DNA of 64,000 nucleotides from an uncultured delta proteobacterium (GTDB lineage: Bacteria > Myxococcota_A > Polyangia > Fen-1088): contig CAWCMR010000025.1 of assembly GCA_963796685.1 (NCBI GenBank), positions 1,344,001 through 1,408,000 of the forward strand. Reading direction: 5' to 3'. The position numbers and the translations under genes were made by a program. The notes under the pieces are model-generated. The model worked only from the letters and a program-made list of their open reading frames with translations, was not told where the DNA came from and did not search any database. Numbering within the stretch: the first letter of the stretch is position 1; each line of letters starts with the position of its first letter. Shown in pieces: positions 15,906-40,236 of this stretch.

Positions 15906-17297
15906 CTAGCGCTGGCGAAGACGGGTGGTCAGCGTCGACACCACGCTACGTAGACTGGCGTCCTCGGCCATCTTCTTTTCGATCTTCTTGACCGCGCTGA
16001 TGATGGTCGAGTGATCCTTACCACCGAAGCGGCTCCCGATCTCGGGATAGCTCATCGAGGTGAGATGGCGCGAGAGGTACATGGCGATCATGCGAGGATG
16101 GGCGACCGCGCGATGCCGCTTCGGACCCTTGAGGTCGTGGACCTTGACCTCGAAATACGACGAAACCTCGCGCTGGATCGATTCGACGCTGAGGCCGGTC
16201 GGGCCGGATGAGGCGAGCGTCTTCAAGATCTCCTCGGCGACTTCCTTGGTGATCGCGCAGCCGGAAAGCGAAGCACGCGCCGAAAGCTGAAGCAAGGCGC
16301 CTTCCAGCTCGCGCACGTTGGACCGAACGTGACTTGCCACCGTCAACGCGACATCGTCCGGCAGATCGAGATGGTCGATCTCGGCCTTGCGCTTGAGGAT
16401 GGCAATCCGAGTCTCGAGATCGGGATGGCCGATCTCGGTGATGAGACCCCAGGTGAAGCGGCTGCGCAGGCGCTCTTCGACGCCGGGCAACTCAGCCGGC
16501 AGCTTGTCGCAGGTGAGGACGATCTGCTTGTGCGTATGATGGAGCGCGTTGAAGGTATGGAAGAACTCGTCCTGGGAGCTGTCCTTGCCCGAGAGGAATT
16601 GAATATCGTCGACCAGGAGCACGTCGGGGGTTTCGCGGTAGCGTTCGCGGAACGCCTCCATCAGGTTCACGCCATTGCCATGACCGTTCCCGGACTGCCG
16701 GCGTTGGTTCAGCATCGAGCCGATGAAGCTCGACACGAACTGCTCGCAGGTCACGACCGTGATGTTCCATTCGGGGTGCTGGCGGTGAATCTCGTGTCCG
16801 ATGGCATGAAGCAAGTGCGTCTTGCCAAGCCCGACCCCACCGTAGATGAACAAGGGGTTGTACTTCGAGGCAGGTGCGTCGGCCACCATGCGCGCCGCCG
16901 CGTGGGCGAACTGGTTGGTTTGGCCGACCACGAACTTGTCGAAGGTGTACCTGCGGTCCAGCCCCTTTGGACAGGGCGAAGGCTCTCGCGGCGCGTCCAC
17001 GGATGGAGGCTCGGCCAATTCTACAGAGCCTTCCGGAGATCTTTCCTGGGCTGCAGTCTCTTCCACCACTTCGATATCCACCGAAAAGGTTGTCTTGGTG
17101 CGCTGCTCAAGGTCTGTGAGAATCGCGGGAAGGTAGTGGTCTTCGAACCATTCCTTCTGGTATCGATTGGGCGCACGCAGGCGAATGTGATTGCCTTCGA
17201 AGCCCACGACAGTGATGGGCCGCAGCCACTGATCTCGCTGCGTCGGCTTGACTCGCTCCTCGACCGATCGTACGGCTTCTCCCCAGAGTGCTAGCAT
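15906..17297 (-). CDS. dnaA: Chromosomal replication initiator DnaA
   Basis: YTFDKFVVG, YNPLFIYGGVGLGKTHL, LLVDDIQF, RLRSRF, NVRELEGAL, GGKDHSTI. Confidence 0.98.
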   Translation of the reverse strand: MLALWGEAVRSVEERVKPTQRDQWLRPITVVGFEGNHIRLRAPNRYQKEWFEDHYLPAILTDLEQRTKTTFSVDIEVVEETAAQERSPEGSVELAEPPSVDAPREPSPCPKGLDRRYTFDKFVVGQTNQFAHAAARMVADAPASKYNPLFIYGGVGLGKTHLLHAIGHEIHRQHPEWNITVVTCEQFVSSFIGSMLNQRRQSGNGHGNGVNLMEAFRERYRETPDVLLVDDIQFLSGKDSSQDEFFHTFNALHHTHKQIVLTCDKLPAELPGVEERLRSRFTWGLITEIGHPDLETRIAILKRKAEIDHLDLPDDVALTVASHVRSNVRELEGALLQLSARASLSGCAITKEVAEEILKTLASSGPTGLSVESIQREVSSYFEVKVHDLKGPKRHRAVAHPRMIAMYLSRHLTSMSYPEIGSRFGGKDHSTIISAVKKIEKKMAEDASLRSVVSTLTTRLRQR

Positions 17298-20566: not shown

Positions 20567-21199
20567 ATGCGCATTCGCCAGCACGTCAACCCGCTCCGCT
20601 CGGACTATTTGCAGATCCCGCTGGAGCCTCTCGTCCTGCCACCAGATCGCCCGATCGAGGTCGAGCTGGGCTCGGCGGAGGCGTTCTTCCTGATGGAGCG
20701 GGCGGCGGAAGAACCGAGCCGCCACTACGTCGGCGTGGAGATCCGCCGCGAGCTCGTGGCCCAGTCGAACGACCAGTGCAAGGGCAAGGGCCTCGATCAG
20801 GTGCGCAGCGTGTTCGCCAATGTCTCGGTTGATCTGCCGCGGTTGTTCCCCCCCGCCAGCGTGAGCCGTTTCCACATCAATTTCCCCGATCCCTGGTTCA
20901 AGCACCGCCAGCGCAAGCGGCGCGTCGTCGACGAGGACTTGGTCGGCCAGCTGGTGGAGCTGCTCGCGCCGGGTGGCGAAATCCACGTGGCCACCGACAT
21001 CTTCGACATCGCGCTCGACGCCATGACCATGCTGGAATGGGAGGCGCCCCGGCGCTTCGTCAATCTCCACGAACCGTGGAGCTTTCTGCGCAAGAGCCAT
21101 TTCGCCGCACGCTCTTTTCGCGAGCGCCTCTGCGAACGCGAAGGCATCCGCATCTGGCGCCTAGGCTATAGATTGAAATGGGAACCCTCGAAGGGTTAG
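20567..21199 (+). CDS. trmB: tRNA m7G46 methyltransferase TrmB
   Basis: RIRQHVNPL, EVELGS, GVEIR, INFPDPWFKHRQRKRR, ATD. Confidence 0.88.
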   Translation: MRIRQHVNPLRSDYLQIPLEPLVLPPDRPIEVELGSAEAFFLMERAAEEPSRHYVGVEIRRELVAQSNDQCKGKGLDQVRSVFANVSVDLPRLFPPASVSRFHINFPDPWFKHRQRKRRVVDEDLVGQLVELLAPGGEIHVATDIFDIALDAMTMLEWEAPRRFVNLHEPWSFLRKSHFAARSFRERLCEREGIRIWRLGYRLKWEPSKG

Positions 21200-21304
21200 C
21201 TGCGCACTCGGCACCTACACCCCCTACCCCTACCCCCTCGCTGCGCTCGGCCTCGCCAAACCCTCCCGCGCTCTGGCGCAGGCGGGCCAAGCCCTCCTGC
21301 GCCA
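21178..21304 (-). repeat. REP-like family A copy containing an empty intron target site
   Basis: Shares ATGGGAACCCT.GAAGGGTT, CTGCGCACTCGGCACC, CCTCGCCAAACCCTC and CCGCGCTCTGGC with the reverse complement of 37627-37801. Confidence 0.8.
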
Positions 21305-21324
21305 ACGCGATAATTGAAGCCTCC

Positions 21325-36699: not shown

Positions 36700-37623
36700 A
36701 TGCGTGAGGACGCAGTGCCGTTCGGCGCCGGCGCGGAGGCGATTCTGGATGTGGCGGTCCACTTGTCGAGCTCTGGCGCGGACGTGGCGCCCGAGGTGAC
36801 CCAGGCCGCACGACTCGCTGCTAAGGATTTGGCAGCCTTGCCGCCGGCTCGCCAGCGCCAGGCAATCGAGCTCGTCATCATGGGGCCGTTCGTGGCGCAA
36901 GCGCTGCAATGGCTCCACGATGCCGGGGTGCTGGCCGCGCTTTTACCCGAGCTCGAAGCCACGGTCGACTTCTCGCAGGAGGCCGGGCGCAGACACAAGG
37001 ATGTCTGGGAGCACACCAAACAGGTCGTGATGCAGGCGCCCGAGCGACCGCTGGTGCGCTGGGCTGCCTTGCTCCACGACATCGGCAAGGTTTCCACACG
37101 CGAGTTCCTGCTCGACGGTCGCGTGACCTTCCACCGTCACGCCGAGCTCGGGGCACGCATGTTCGGCCCCATCGCCCGCCGCCTCGGTTTCGAGCGCGCC
37201 GATCGGCAGAAGATTCAGGCGCTCATCCTGCATCACCTGCGCGCCAACGCCTACGAGCCCGAATGGACCGACGCTGCGGTGCGTCGATTCGACCACGAGA
37301 TGGGAGACCTCCTCGAGGATTTGGTCGGCCTCTCTCGCGCCGATGTTACCTCGGCCCGTCCCGGCCGTCGGCAAGAGGCCGCTCGCAACATCGAGGCTCT
37401 CGTGCAAAGGATCTTCGCCGTACGCGAGCTCGACGCGCGCGTGCCGCCCCTGCCACCGGGTGTGGGCAACGCCATCATGCAGGCCTTCAACCTTGCGCCG
37501 TCCCGCCGGGTGGGTGAGCTGCGCAAGCTGTGCGAGGATGCCATCGAGCGCGGCGAGCTCAGCGAGCGTCAACCCTCCGAGTACTACGTGGACTATCTGC
37601 GCCGACAAGGCATCACCGGATAG
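36700..37623 (+). CDS. HD-domain protein resembling the C-terminal half of CCA-adding enzymes
   Basis: LLPEL, HKDVWEHT, AALLHDIGK, TFHRHAELGA, HHLR, WTDAAVRR, RADVTS; no nucleotidyltransferase head. Confidence 0.8.
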   Translation: MREDAVPFGAGAEAILDVAVHLSSSGADVAPEVTQAARLAAKDLAALPPARQRQAIELVIMGPFVAQALQWLHDAGVLAALLPELEATVDFSQEAGRRHKDVWEHTKQVVMQAPERPLVRWAALLHDIGKVSTREFLLDGRVTFHRHAELGARMFGPIARRLGFERADRQKIQALILHHLRANAYEPEWTDAAVRRFDHEMGDLLEDLVGLSRADVTSARPGRRQEAARNIEALVQRIFAVRELDARVPPLPPGVGNAIMQAFNLAPSRRVGELRKLCEDAIERGELSERQPSEYYVDYLRRQGITG

Positions 37624-37626
37624 AGC

Positions 37627-37801
37627 GCGTAGGCGGAGGCCGGCTTTGCCGGCCGTAGCCAGAGCGCGGGGCCGAGCGCAGCGAGCGGGGTGGTGGGTGT
37701 CGGGTAGGGGCCGAGGGTTTGGCGAGGCCGCGCGAAGCGCGGGGGAGGCAGGGCGGGCTGGCGGGTGCCGAGTGCGCAGGGAACCCTTCCAGGGTTCCCA
37801 T
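37627..37801 (+). repeat. REP-like family A copy containing an empty intron target site
   Basis: GCGTAGGCGGAGGCCGGC-TTT-GCCGGCCGTAGCCAGAG|CGCGGG ... GGGAACCCTTCCAGGGTTCCCAT. Confidence 0.85.
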
Positions 37802-37812
37802 GATCGATGATT

Positions 37813-37850
37813 GCGTAGGCGGAGACGGGCTTTGCCCGTCGTAGCCAGAG
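37813..37850 (+). repeat. Family A repeat, left part (5' exon of the intron)
   Basis: GCGTAGGCGGAGACGGGC-TTT-GCCCGTCGTAGCCAGAG, near-identical to 37627-37664. Confidence 0.85.
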
Positions 37851-39927
37851 GTGCGTCCGGCATGGACGCAGAACAAGAGGTGAAGCCATGAAATAGCCAA
37901 GTCCTCTGGGGACCCTGACGGAGGGAACCTCCCACCTACGAGACAAGGGCGCCGGTCTGGAGCACCAGGCCAGACGGGCCGCAAGGCCCGTCTCCCGCGA
38001 GGAGGTGTCTGGTGGAAGTCTATGGTGCAGCGCCGAACCGAACGAAAGTGAAGCGCCGTAAGGCGTGGGTACCGCTGGGCAAGCTGGCCTTCGGCGGCAA
38101 AGCCCAATATTCGTCGGGCGGCCCGCGTAGTGGCGACGGAGTCGGTGCGAAGTTCTGCGTTCTTACCCGGAGAGACCTCTTGGCCTCCGCGGCGAGGAAT
38201 CGCAAGCGGAATTCATCGAGAACGAAAGGACGAGATGAAGAAGGGACAAGAGGAGTCGGATGGTCGCGTAATACCGGAAGGCCGGCGAAAGCCGGTTCCA
38301 ACCGCCAGAAGGCGGGGAGGGAAGGCGACCACGGCCAGCAAAGAGGCAAGGCAGCTCGGACTGTTTCCCGAGACAGCCGACAACCCGAAAGGGTCCACCG
38401 CCCAAGCGGATCCGGGCCAACCCGTGCCTGCGCGGAGCGAGGTGCCGAAGTCGGGGAACGAGGAAGAGAGGACCTTGCCGCCCATGACGATGGAGGAGGT
38501 AGCGAGCGAAGGAAACCTGAAAAGAGCGTTCGAGCAAGTGAAGGCCAACAAAGGCGCACCTGGACCGGACCGGCAAAGCGTGGGGGAAGTGGCGAAGGGG
38601 TTGGGGACGCTGATACCGGCGCTGTCGCGGTCGCTGCTCGACGGGACATACCGAGTCGGAGACATCCGGCGGGTATGGATACCGAAGAGCGGTGGCGGGC
38701 GGCGGGGCCTTGGCATACCGAACGTGGTGGACCGCGTGGTTCAGCAGGCCGTGCACCAAGTGCTCGGTCCGCATTATGAGCCGACGTTTCACCCGTCGAG
38801 CCACGGTTTCCGACCTGGGCGCAGCCTGTCACACGGCCATCGCCGAGGCCAAGCAGTATCTGGAGGAAGGGTACGAATGGGTGGTCGACCTCGACCTGGA
38901 AAAGTTCTTTGACTGGGTCCACTGGCAACGGCTGGTGGCGCGGCTAGAACAGAGGGTTAAGGACCGGCGGCTCATCGAGCTCGATCTGGCAGATGCTGAA
39001 AGCCAAGGTGGTGATGCCCGACGGAGTGGTGGTGGCGACGGAAGAAGGAGTGCCACAAGGTGGTCCGCTTTCGCCGTTACTGAGCAATATCGTGCTGGAC
39101 GAGCTCGACCGCGAGCTTGCCCAACGCGGTCACCGCTTCGTGCGCTATGCGGACGACTGCAACATCTACGTCGGAAGCGAGCGCTCGGGTCAGCGTGTGA
39201 TGGCCAGCGTGGTCAAGTTCATCGAAGGCCGGATGCGGTTGAAGGTGAACTTGGCCAAGAGCGCGGTGGCCCGACCGGAAGAGCGGCACTTTCTGGGATT
39301 CCGGCTGCGGCGCGAGCCGCTGACGGGGGAAGCGGAGGTGCTGCTGTCGGCGCGGAGCAAAAGCCGCATTGACGAGAAGGTCCGAGAGCTGACGCCGCGA
39401 AACCTTGGGCAGTCCCTCAAGGGCTGCATCAAACAGGTCAACGCGTATTTGCTCGGATGGATCGGCTTCTTCTGTATCTGCACGGCCGCGGAAGAGCGGA
39501 CGCTGCAGGCACTCGACGCACACATCAGGCGGCGGCTGCGAGCGATAGTGCTACGGCACTGGAAACGCAGACGCTTCATCGCACGACACCTCATCAGCCT
39601 GGGGGTGAGACCGAAAACCGCGTGGCAAGGGGTCTACAAGGGGCATCGCTCCTGGTGGGCGCTGAGCCACACATCGGTAGTTGAACGAGGACTGCGCAAC
39701 GCATATTTTGCCGAACGCGGGCTTGTCAGCCTGGCCGAGCGGTGGAAGGACCATCACGCCTTGGACTTCATGGACCCGGCCCTGGAGCCAGGATAGCTGC
39801 GGGCAGCAATGCCGGCGCTGGACTACGGGTCGCTCCCGAACGCCAGCGTCCCGAAGAGCCGGATGTGAGGCCCACAAGTCCGGTTCTGTGAGAGCTGGGG
39901 GAGGGTAACCTCCCCTGGCTACTCGAC
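37851..39927 (+). mobile_element. Group II intron, class IIC-like, with RT/maturase ORF
   Basis: 5' GTGCGTCCGGCATGG; DI/DII junction CTTACCCGGAGAG; short domain V GAGCCGGATGTG-AGGCC-CACAAGTCCGGTTC; domain VI and 3' end CTACTCGAC; flanks rejoin into an intact repeat. Confidence 0.92.
38484..39796 (+). CDS. ltrA: Group II intron reverse transcriptase/maturase without endonuclease domain; apparent +1 frameshifts at ~38826 and ~38981
   Basis: NKGAPGPD, IPKSGGGRRGLGIP..DR, SHGFRPGRS, VDLDLEKFFD, GVPQGGPLSPLLSNI, FVRYADD, FLGF, GWIGFF. Alternative start at 38235. Confidence 0.9.
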
Positions 39928-39963
39928 CGCGGGAGGGTTTGGGAACCCTTCCAGGGTTCCCAT
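39928..39963 (+). repeat. Family A repeat, right part (3' exon of the intron)
   Basis: CGCGGGAGGGTTTGGGAACCCTTCCAGGGTTCCCAT; the first 15 nt are identical to the minus strand at 21270-21256. Confidence 0.85.
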
Positions 39964-40011: not shown

Positions 40012-40107
40012 GGAGGGCGGTCCCGGGCGACGGAACACTTGCGAACCCCGCCAGGCCTGGAAGGGAGCAACGGTAGCTTGTCGACTGGGTGCTCGGGACC
40101 GTTCCTT
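40012..40107 (+). ncRNA. ffs: Signal recognition particle RNA (4.5S)
   Basis: Conserved helix-8 core GAACCCCGCCAGGCCTGGAAGGGAGCAACGG, closed by the GGGCGGTCCCGGGC / GCTCGGGACCGTTC stem. Confidence 0.9.
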
Positions 40108-40236
40108 TGTCCTGGCGGCGCTAAAGAGCGCGCGACCGACGGGATGCCCGCCGCACGCGGCGCGGCTACCAGATAGAGACGTGGTGGGCGAAAGACCTGC
40201 TAAGATCCTCCCGATGATCGCCATCAAGGAGGGCCG

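What the first reader, a model, noticed from the sequence alone, without database searches (positions are those of the whole stretch)
37813..39963. Group IIC-like intron inserted in a dispersed REP-like repeat, with two empty targets in the same window
Seen: removing 37851-39927 rejoins GCGTAGGCGGAGACGGGC-TTT-GCCCGTCGTAGCCAGAG|CGCGGGAGGGTTTGG. The same hairpin-CCAGAG|CGCGGG junction is unoccupied at 37664/37665 (+) and 21271/21270 (-). Insertion is 4 nt after the extended stem. Known: IIC introns recognise a DNA hairpin plus a short IBS1, classically at intrinsic terminators or attC sites, and lack the endonuclease domain, as this ORF does. Inference: this lineage uses an abundant intergenic repeat family as a renewable, low-cost homing site, a parasite-on-repeat system. 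I do not know it to be described for this group, but cannot confirm novelty.
Basis: partly seen in the sequence, partly recalled or inferred. Interest (0 to 1): 0.85.

Follow-up and report, generated by a model that had tools for sequence, protein, structure and literature searches.

The report
Class C intron in palindromic repeats
This is an ordinary hairpin-seeking (class C) bacterial group II intron present in 11 near-identical copies, which lands in several different families of short palindromic repeats, not in one dedicated family.

Summary
A 2077-nt group II intron lies at 37851-39927 (+). Removing it restores a repeat unit whose empty form occurs at 37664|37665 (+) and 21271|21270 (-).

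It belongs to class C (IIC). Its protein has RT and maturase domains and no endonuclease. Its best solved relatives are the GsI-IIC and E. rectale IIC RTs. A 4-nt EBS1 loop covaries with the 5' exon in 8 of 8 related introns.

The genome holds 11 copies at 99.8-100% identity. All 10 readable 5' exons end 0-4 nt after a stem-loop. The other 8 lie in at least five other hairpin sequences. Nine of the 10 sites lie in clearly repeated DNA; the C12 site has a single empty paralogue.

Enrichment for repeats over other intergenic hairpins is weak. Orientation follows replication in 11 of 11 copies.

The window copy carries two 1-nt insertions that break its ORF; 7 of 11 copies are intact.

Verdict: a new member of a known kind. 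The "dedicated repeat family" reading is not supported. "Repeat palindromes as the main available landing sites" is.

The parts
37851..39927 (+). Group IIC (class C) intron, 2077 nt. This copy has a frameshifted ORF.
   Evidence: Rfam RF02001 and RF00029. The ends are shared with 10 other full-length copies at 99.76-99.90% identity.
37813..37850 (+). 5' exon: family A head hairpin. Inner stem GACGGGC/GCCCGTC with loop TTT, outer GGC/GCC. IBS1 = AGAG at 37847-37850.
   Evidence: Sequence. RNAfold -19.8 kcal/mol for the 45-nt 5' exon. nhmmer family A hit C25:1381813-1381850.
39928..39963 (+). 3' exon: the rest of the repeat unit, CGCGGGAGGGTTTGG plus the tail hairpin GGGAACCCTTCCAGGGTTCCC.
   Evidence: Sequence. 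The tail hairpin at 39940-39962 scores as terminator-like, but 2 such sites were found in the region against 2.7 expected from shuffles.
38089..38092 (+). EBS1 (CUUC) in the loop GCCUUCGG of domain I.
   Evidence: In an alignment of 8 related IIC introns, the loop at this place is complementary to the last 3-4 nt of each intron's own 5' exon in 8 of 8 (flanks).
38235..39798 (+). Intron-encoded RT/maturase ORF. It is broken here by 1-nt insertions at 38825 and 38983. The intact form is 519 aa (P0001, taken from copy L003).
   Evidence: ORF list. Copy alignment: 7 of 11 copies are 2075 nt with an open frame, 3 carry one insertion, and this one carries two. Pfam, NCBIfam and PDB matches.
39854..39927 (+). 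Domains V and VI. The A at 39921 is the likely bulged branch site (inference from the sequence).
   Evidence: RF00029, 46.6 bits, model positions 1-77.
37625..37802 (+). Neighbouring composite repeat unit with an unoccupied family A target, junction 37664|37665.
   Evidence: Sequence. Pattern match at 37655-37670. BLAST finds paralogues genome-wide.
21160..21312 (-). Third repeat unit with an unoccupied junction, 21271|21270.
   Evidence: Sequence. nhmmer hit C25:1365308-1365267.
40014..40108 (+). Context: SRP RNA gene 87 nt downstream of the intron, on the same strand.
   Evidence: RF00169, 59.7 bits.
36700..37623 (+). Context: upstream ORF with PolyA_pol_RNAbd and HD domains. Its stop codon lies 2 nt before the first repeat unit.
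   Evidence: ORF list. Pfam.
16437..16961 (-). Context: dnaA, at the minimum of cumulative GC skew. This is the probable replication origin and sets the fork direction at the intron.
   Evidence: PF00308 at G000:C25:1360437-1360961, 211 bits. Cumulative skew minimum of C25 at about 1.36-1.38 Mb.

Best explanation
A class C (IIC) group II intron retroelement that entered this genome recently and multiplied to 11 copies.

Proposed mechanism. The intron RNA, bound to its RT/maturase, reverse-splices into single-stranded DNA wherever a stable stem-loop is followed within 0-4 nt by a purine-rich IBS1 (RRAG or RAGG). IBS1 pairs with EBS1 (CUUC), and the next base is usually C. The strand attacked is the template of the lagging strand at replication forks, where hairpins can extrude and where Okazaki primers can replace the missing endonuclease.

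Why the repeats. In this genome a large share of intergenic stem-loops belong to mosaic palindromic repeat modules: family A and at least four others. The intron therefore ends up in them. The repeats are tolerated landing sites, not a co-adapted homing site.

The window copy has lost its own ORF. If it is still active, it would depend on protein from the 7 intact copies.

Shown here: class, boundaries, copy number, flanks, EBS1-IBS1 covariation, strand bias, repeat membership.
Inferred: reverse splicing into single-stranded DNA, lagging-strand priming, complementation in trans. These rest on published work on IIC introns (PMC10190682 and PMC4424553, passages read).
For: Class.
- Best PDB matches are the GsI-IIC RT 6ar1 (E 5.7e-109), the E. 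rectale IIC RNP protein 7uim (4.5e-87), and 5hhj and 5hhl. LtrA scores 3.3e-37 and 6me0 scores 1.5e-22.
- TIGR04416 at 369 bits.
- Pfam finds RVT_1 and GIIM only.
- RF02001 and RF00029 match.

Copies. 11 full-length copies at 99.76-100% identity, with 7 variable columns in 2077.

Targets.
- 10 of 10 readable 5' exons fold into a stem-loop that ends 0-4 nt before the junction.
- The last four bases are AGAG, ATAG, GAAG (2), GAGG, GGAG (4) and TAGG.
- The base after the junction is C in 8 of 11 copies.

EBS1. The loop covaries with IBS1 in 8 of 8 related introns.

Repeats. Every one of the 10 sites has empty paralogues: 112-118 for family A, 10 for family B, 106, 97-98, 51-59, and 2 BLAST hits at one locus for the C12 site.

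Not terminators. The head hairpin has no T-run and is not called terminator-like (sequence).

Strand.
- 9 of 11 copies have their sense strand on the G-rich strand at the 25, 50 and 100 kb scales.
- The other two lie to the right of dnaA and of the skew minimum, on the + strand. That makes 11 of 11, one-sided sign test 0.0005.
- By crude gene calls, the upstream gene is co-oriented in only 5 of 10.

Recent arrival.
- No near full-length copy in the 12 same-genus genomes searched. The best relative is 78% identical DNA in another family of the same class.
- The IEP lies in a 100/100-supported clade apart from the IIC introns of sister species.
Against: Nothing here shows activity. There are no raw reads, no spliced-exon evidence and no empty allele at this locus; one search gave only contigs, confounded by the multicopy repeats.

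Copy pairs in the same family (family B, family C, the two adjacent units of the C8 tandem array) could be duplications of repeat plus intron. Independent insertion events may then be as few as 6 or 7.

The strand-bias count treats copies as independent. On contigs other than C25 it rests on GC skew alone.

The hairpin census used only perfect stems of at least 7 bp with 3-4 nt loops, which captures 8 of the 10 sites. The gene calls were crude, covering 53% and 68% of the genome, so the true background share of repeats among intergenic hairpins is uncertain.

The genome is a bin: 88.6% complete, 6.5% contamination.
Confidence: 0.8

Rival explanations
1. One reading: this intron lineage has specialised on repeat family A as a renewable homing site, a parasite on one repeat family.
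For: - Two independent loci of family A are occupied: C25:1381851 and C25:483477, with different outer flanks.
- About 100 empty copies carry the same junction, 70 of them ending in AGAG.
- The family is conserved across the genus.
- 2 of 8 hits against a 3.7% share of all competent hairpins gives P = 0.034.
Against: - 8 of 10 readable copies sit in other hairpins, with different stems, loops and 3' exons.
- Against hairpins outside crude gene calls, P rises to 0.14.
- Occupancy is about 2 in 100.
- Relatives in the same IEP clade sit after unrelated hairpins.
Confidence: 0.07
2. A real but broader preference: the intron, and perhaps its whole IEP clade, favours dispersed palindromic repeat modules without U-tracts over unique hairpins. 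It might recognise a shared feature such as the GCGTAG / CGNAG mismatched outer stem, or a palindrome that runs across the junction.
For: - By the census criterion, 7 of 8 sites are in repeats, against 24.5% expected from all competent hairpins: P = 0.0003.
- Family A, family B and the C8 array share a GCG(T/C)AG ... CG(N)AG frame around a 6-7 bp stem with a 3-nt loop.
- Four of 4 copies of a related intron in a Planctomycetota genome share one upstream repeat motif.
- The 3' exon extends the palindrome more than 95% of random 12-mers do at 4 of 10 sites.
Against: - With coding DNA roughly removed, the expected share of repeats is 39-46%. P becomes 0.008-0.02, or 0.08-0.14 when each family is counted once.
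- The C12 site has a single paralogue.
- The palindrome extension is no better than random at the family B sites and at C25:485921 (60-66 of 200 random 12-mers do as well).
- Selection against insertions elsewhere would give the same picture.
Confidence: 0.2
3. Most copies arose by duplication or movement of the host repeats, or by recombination between them, carrying the intron as a passenger; few arose by retrotransposition.
For: - Two copies occupy adjacent 80-bp units of one tandem array and are identical at all 7 variable columns.
- The family B pair shares about 75 nt upstream and 60 nt downstream. Eight empty family B copies are 100% identical over 100 nt, so that module may have spread recently.
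Against: - At least six unrelated 5' exon hairpins are occupied.
- The outer flanks of the family A and family C pairs differ.
- Every junction is exact to the base, with an IBS1 that fits EBS1.
Confidence: 0.1

Closest known systems
Terminator-targeting class C (IIC) introns such as B.h.I1 and GsI-IIC
   Same: - En-less RT/maturase, most similar to the GsI-IIC RT.
- Small ribozyme that matches the same Rfam models.
- 3-4 bp IBS1-EBS1 plus an upstream stem-loop.
- Many near-identical intergenic copies.
- The published description is 'downstream of terminator motifs or other inverted repeats' (PMC1702495, abstract read).
   Different: - The occupied hairpins have no T-run and belong to dispersed repeat families.
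- By crude gene calls, the upstream gene is co-oriented in only 5 of 10.
- The IEP is about 46% identical to Geobacillus and Bacillus relatives and lies in another clade.
Group IIC-attC introns (S.ma.I2 lineage)
   Same: - Class C.
- Targets a folded imperfect palindrome, not a terminator.
- Sister species of this genus carry IIC introns inside clustered, co-oriented sites that start next to integron integrases.
   Different: - None of the 10 flanks here is such a site, and no attC-like motif hit in G000 lies at an intron copy.
- The IEP is about 42% identical to the sister-species introns and sits in a separate 100/100 clade.
- No named IIC-attC reference sequence could be included, so placement against that lineage is untested.
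REP-associated mobile elements, as tabulated by Tobes and Pareja 2006 (includes the P. putida KT2440 group II intron, 2 of 9 copies)
   Same: A mobile element found inside short, abundant, extragenic palindromic repeats. The precedent for a group II intron is one table row (PMC1525189, passage read).
   Different: - Here all 10 readable copies are in repeated palindromes, spread over several families.
- No Y1 / RAYT transposase was found in this genome, which is 88.6% complete. The repeats are therefore REP-like in form only.

Membership tests
Group II intron, class C / IIC | The intron-encoded protein groups with class C RT/maturases | tested here: met
   PDB: GsI-IIC RT at E 5.7e-109, the E. 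rectale and R. intestinalis IIC proteins next, LtrA (IIA) at 3.3e-37 and 6me0 at 1.5e-22. In the tree it groups with Geobacillus and Bacillus IIC-type proteins; no outgroup from another class was included. That these PDB entries are IIC is partly from their titles and partly recalled.
Group II intron, class C / IIC | No endonuclease domain in the IEP | tested here: met
   Pfam gives RVT_1 and GIIM only. After GIIM, 73 residues remain with no match.
Group II intron, class C / IIC | Ribozyme with group II domains V/VI and an IIC-type domain I | tested here: met
   RF00029 at 46.6 bits and RF02001 at 79.7 bits, both full-length model matches. That RF02001 is the IIC-type model is recalled, not shown by a call.
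Group II intron, class C / IIC | 5' exon recognised by a short IBS1-EBS1 pairing (3-4 bp), with no EBS2 | tested here: inconclusive
   EBS1 is located, and covaries with IBS1 in 8 of 8 introns. In this genome it forms 2-4 pairs with each of the 10 exons (pairs counted by eye). The absence of an EBS2-IBS2 pairing was not examined.
Group II intron, class C / IIC | Insertion just 3' of a DNA stem-loop | tested here: met
   10 of 10 readable copies. Also seen in 8 related introns of other genomes.
Group II intron, class C / IIC | Splicing and retromobility | not testable with these tools
   Only contigs of public runs could be laid. The multicopy repeats make joints uninformative.
Group IIC-attC lineage | Inserted in an integron attC site | tested here: not met
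   None of the flanks carries the clustered attC-like motif. The G000 hits for that motif lie elsewhere.
Group IIC-attC lineage | IEP inside the monophyletic IIC-attC clade | tested here: inconclusive
   It lies apart from the attC-site introns of sister species. No published IIC-attC reference was in the tree: two plasmid searches did not surface one in an integron context.
REP elements in the strict sense (RAYT-associated) | Short, imperfect, extragenic palindrome in many copies | tested here: met
   126 nhmmer hits. 73 of 100 parsed copies have a perfect 7-bp stem. There are 7 fully paired stem variants, i.e. compensatory changes. The family is found in 11 of 12 same-genus genomes.
REP elements in the strict sense (RAYT-associated) | A cognate Y1 (RAYT) transposase in the genome | tested here: not met
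   PF01797: 0 matches in G000, which is 88.6% complete. The control genomes matched.
Intrinsic terminator as target | GC-rich stem followed by a T-run | tested here: not met
   The head hairpins are followed by purine-rich sequence. The scan calls none of them terminator-like. Only the separate tail hairpin at 39940-39962 is called, and that is within chance expectation.

The most novel reading that the evidence does not exclude
This intron clade has shifted its target from terminators to dispersed, U-tract-free palindromic repeat modules read on the lagging-strand template. That would be a fourth habitual target class for group II introns, beside homing sites, terminators and attC sites. In the same genus a second IIC lineage sits in attC-like sites of chromosomal integrons, apparently co-oriented with the cassette ORF, which differs from the bottom-strand arrangement described for IIC-attC introns.
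Probability: 0.25. Interest if true: 0.55.

Novelty: new member of a known kind. Interest (0 to 1): 0.35.

Why it matters
It gives a clean natural data set for how IIC introns choose DNA. One genome holds 11 almost identical copies in at least six different hairpin contexts, with hundreds of matched empty sites. Orientation tracks replication in 11 of 11 copies, whereas co-orientation with the upstream gene holds in only 5 of 10 by crude calls.

That supports, from genome data alone, the structure-plus-IBS1 and replication-fork model built on a few laboratory introns. It also shows that in GC-rich genomes poor in canonical terminators the same mechanism fills repeat palindromes instead.

It does not reveal a new kind of element.

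Tried and rejected
Public runs. Only Logan contigs were available.
- Joints that skip the intron (for example 37847>39928 and 37664>39928) carry other letters or short sides. They are explained by other family A copies in the metagenomes, so they show neither spliced exons nor an empty allele.
- A 2076-nt contig from an RNA library matches the intron exactly end to end at about 95% identity. Contigs break at repeat borders, so this is not evidence of excised intron RNA.
- The contigs of all four runs lack the extra bases at 38825 and 38983. Because 11 copies collapse into one contig, this shows only that the majority form is intact. It does not show whether the window copy's frameshifts are real or assembly errors.

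Palindrome across the junction. RNAfold drew the junction inside a longer helix at 10 of 10 sites. The control shows the energy gain beats 95% of 200 random 12-mers at only 4 of 10 sites, and 90% at 6 of 10. I therefore do not claim it as a general feature.

Enrichment tests. These depend on my crude GC3-based gene calls and on a narrow hairpin definition. I report them as weak, not as support for a preference. For the census I dropped the two family C sites, which do not have a perfect 7-bp stem with a 3-4 nt loop.

RAYT link: no Y1 transposase found.

IIC-attC references: tblastn of two IEPs against plasmids gave rhizobial, Burkholderia and IncL/M plasmid introns. The two hits whose annotation I opened (H24 and H1) were not in an integron context. 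Placement relative to the published IIC-attC lineage therefore stays open.

Literature. Searches found no paper devoted to IIC introns in REP-like repeats, only the table row in PMC1525189. Robart 2007 (PMC1871835) and Mohr 2018 (PMC6082379) are not held. Supplements are closed. Either source may list non-terminator or repeat targets that I could not see.
Full report
**What is there**

The stretch 37851-39927 (+) is a complete group II intron. It begins GTGCG and ends CTACTCGAC. It matches Rfam RF02001 (domain I to IV model 3; 79.7 bits against a gathering score of 32) at 37991-38161. It matches RF00029 (domains V and VI; 46.6 bits against 40) at 39854-39927. The same hairpin-CCAGAG|CGCGGG junction lies unoccupied at 37664|37665 on the + strand and at 21271|21270 on the - strand.

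**Class**

The ORF of the window copy is split over three frames. An alignment of all genomic copies shows why. This copy has single-base insertions at alignment columns 975 and 1133, which are window positions 38825 and 38983. Seven of 11 copies are 2075 nt with one open frame, and three carry only the first insertion.

The intact 519-aa protein (P0001) has these properties:
- It has Pfam RVT_1 and GIIM and nothing else, so it has no endonuclease domain.
- It passes TIGR04416 at 369 bits.
- Its best solved relatives are the GsI-IIC RT (E 5.7e-109), the protein of the E. rectale IIC RNP (4.5e-87), and two further IIC maturases. LtrA scores 3.3e-37 and the 6me0 maturase 1.5e-22.

Class C and IIC are the same set of introns, according to a passage of PMC7306698.

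In an alignment of the RF02001 region from eight related introns, the hairpin loop at window 38089-38092 (CUUC) changes together with the last 3-4 bases of each intron's own 5' exon. It is complementary in 8 of 8 (flanks). This fixes EBS1 and confirms both the splice boundary and the short IIC-type pairing. I did not test for the absence of EBS2.

**Copies and targets**

The genome holding the window is a bin of 7.3 Mb in 26 contigs, 88.6% complete with 6.5% contamination. It contains 11 full-length copies at 99.76-100% identity, plus one 141-nt 3' fragment of a more distant relative. One copy abuts a contig end, so 10 have readable 5' exons.

All 10 end in a stem-loop followed by 0-4 nt. The last four bases are AGAG, ATAG, GAAG (twice), GAGG, GGAG (four times) and TAGG. 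Each can form 2-4 pairs with CUUC when G-U pairs are allowed.

Only two of the ten are family A. The others are:
- two in a module I call family B,
- two in family C,
- one in a related GCCCCGCG palindrome,
- two in adjacent units of an 80-bp tandem array on C8,
- one after an AT-richer 9-bp hairpin on C12.

Ligated-exon queries built in a script find empty paralogues for every site: 112-118, 10, 106, 97-98 and 51-59 junction-spanning hits. The C12 site gives 2 hits, both at one locus. Family B is a module of about 170-260 nt that often lies beside family A units, so these repeats form mosaics.

**Family A itself**

Three rounds of nhmmer give 126 hits. Of these, 100 parse with the junction, 73 have a perfect 7-bp inner stem, and seven different fully paired stem sequences occur. 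The hairpin is therefore maintained through compensatory change. Seventy copies end in AGAG. Many copies stand in tandem arrays with a period of about 80 bp.

A 32-nt pattern with up to 3 mismatches matches 70 times in this genome. It is found in 11 of 12 same-genus genomes and in one genome of another genus. It is found in none of the other 27 genomes searched, and the reversed control pattern gives no hit anywhere.

No Y1 (RAYT) transposase was found. The head hairpin has no T-run and is not called terminator-like. Occupancy by the intron is 2 in about 100.

**Is there a preference for repeats?**

I listed all perfect hairpins with at least 7 bp and a 3-4 nt loop, strand by strand. There are 5150, of which 1558 lie in DNA with three or more BLAST hits.
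- Among those followed within 11 nt by RRG and then C or A, 466 are repeated and 1435 unique.
- Eight of the ten occupied sites fit this hairpin definition, and seven of those eight are in repeats. That gives P = 0.0003, or 0.015 if each family counts once.
- Most unique hairpins lie in genes. Outside my crude GC3-based gene calls, the repeated share rises to 39% when 53% of the genome is called coding, and to 46% when 68% is called coding.
- The P values then become 0.008-0.02, or 0.08-0.14 per family.
- For family A alone, P is 0.034 or 0.14.

I conclude that the data fit an intron taking any suitable intergenic hairpin, in a genome where a large share of such hairpins belong to repeats. A true preference is not excluded, but it is not shown.

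**Orientation**
- dnaA lies at window 16437-16961 (-), at the minimum of cumulative GC skew of the 2.1-Mb contig. The three copies to its left are on the - strand and the two to its right are on the + strand.
- On the other contigs, local skew at 25, 50 and 100 kb puts the sense strand on the G-rich strand every time.
- Taken together, 11 of 11 copies are co-oriented with fork movement. The strand that received the intron RNA is therefore the lagging-strand template.
- This agrees with the published view that En-less introns use replication forks for priming (passages of PMC4424553 and PMC10190682).
- By contrast, the upstream gene is co-oriented in only 5 of 10 cases by my crude calls.

**Relatives**

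No near full-length copy of this intron was found in the 12 same-genus genomes searched. The best match is 78% identical DNA in a genome of another family of the same class.

In a maximum-likelihood tree of 31 IEPs, the protein falls in a clade with 100/100 support. Its partners there are that relative, MAGs labelled Polyangium, Gemmatimonadales, Bdellovibrionota and Planctomycetota, and a Sinorhizobium plasmid intron. The relatives with a readable 5' end also follow hairpins. In the Planctomycetota genome, four of four copies share an upstream repeat motif.

Sister species of the window's genus carry a different IIC lineage, about 42% identical at the protein level and forming a separate 100/100 clade. 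Several of its copies sit inside sites that begin with a conserved 17-mer. These sites occur in co-oriented clusters that start just after integron integrase genes scoring above the TIGR02249 cut-off. They look like attC sites of chromosomal integrons, and the window's genome has three such integrases. None of the ten flanks studied here is such a site.

**Comparison with what is known**

The element works like, and is a member of, class C / IIC. Papers I could read say the following:
- IIC introns lie after terminator motifs 'or other inverted repeats' (PMC1702495, abstract).
- They lie 'usually after palindromic sequences' (PMC3001079, introduction passage).
- Three target specificities are listed: homing sites, terminators and attC (PMC4424553, passage).
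- One table scores the P. putida KT2440 group II intron as REP-associated in 2 of 9 copies (PMC1525189, table passage).

Five full-text searches found no paper devoted to IIC introns in REP-like repeats. Two key papers are not held and supplements are closed.

**Verdict**

The idea of a dedicated repeat-family homing site is not supported. The intron uses many palindromes, and family A is one of them. It is a new member of a known kind and makes a tidy natural illustration of hairpin-plus-IBS1 targeting on the lagging-strand template. Interest is moderate to low.

Noticed in passing
window 16437-16961 (-) and surroundings: dnaA lies at the minimum of cumulative GC skew of the 2.1-Mb contig, so the window probably contains the chromosomal replication origin.
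   Followed up: partly
G000, e.g. C25:2111448-2112049, C25:1799270-1799631, C5:113881-114258, C21:64141-66408: Family A units stand in tandem arrays of 3 to 8 or more units, with periods of about 80 bp (also 129 and 372 bp). Each unit is a head hairpin plus a GGGAACCC..GGGTTCCC tail hairpin. The function is unknown.
   Followed up: partly
G000:C22:232551-233489, C9:33503-34444, C6:1518-2459; G010:C15:282618-328585; G004:C17:93644-109223: Integron integrases score above the TIGR02249 cut-off. Each is followed by co-oriented clusters of a conserved 17-mer spaced 0.3-3 kb apart, i.e. chromosomal integron cassette arrays. In G010 about 45 sites lie within 44 kb.
   Followed up: partly
L097 (G004:C17:96643-99756), also L094, L107, L108, L111: A second IIC lineage in sister species sits near the 3' end of these attC-like sites. 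In L097 it has the same orientation as the next cassette ORF, and a GTTAGCC core-like motif follows 8 nt into the 3' exon. Published IIC-attC introns are described as bottom-strand, i.e. opposite to cassette genes.
   Followed up: partly
G000:C25:1550098-1550238 (+): A 141-nt 3' fragment of a diverged relative of the intron (87.7% identity) lies about 0.8 kb from an attC-like cluster at C25:1551056-1566325.
   Followed up: no
G000:C12:29103-35208, C11:5049-9550, C10:129284-131330 and 146010-150510, C25:679372-683843: Groups of adjacent tyrosine-recombinase matches recur at five loci, possibly recombinase-in-trio-type elements. Two of the groups lie 0.6-3 kb downstream of intron copies C12:26453 and C11:2.
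   Followed up: no
window 37850-39927, run X11 record 14 and run X8 record 27: Contigs from soil metatranscriptome libraries carry a variant of the intron about 95% identical. One contig is 2076 nt and ends exactly at both intron borders. Contigs break at repeat borders, so this does not show excised RNA.
   Followed up: no
L011-L014 (Planctomycetota MAG chromosome): Four copies of a related IIC intron (IEP 54% identical) each follow a shared repeat motif and a long-range palindrome. Repeat residence may therefore be common in this IEP clade.
   Followed up: partly
window 36700-37623 (+): The upstream ORF has only PolyA_pol_RNAbd and HD domains. The nucleotidyltransferase head expected in CCA-adding or poly(A) polymerase-type enzymes was not seen in this frame.
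   Followed up: no
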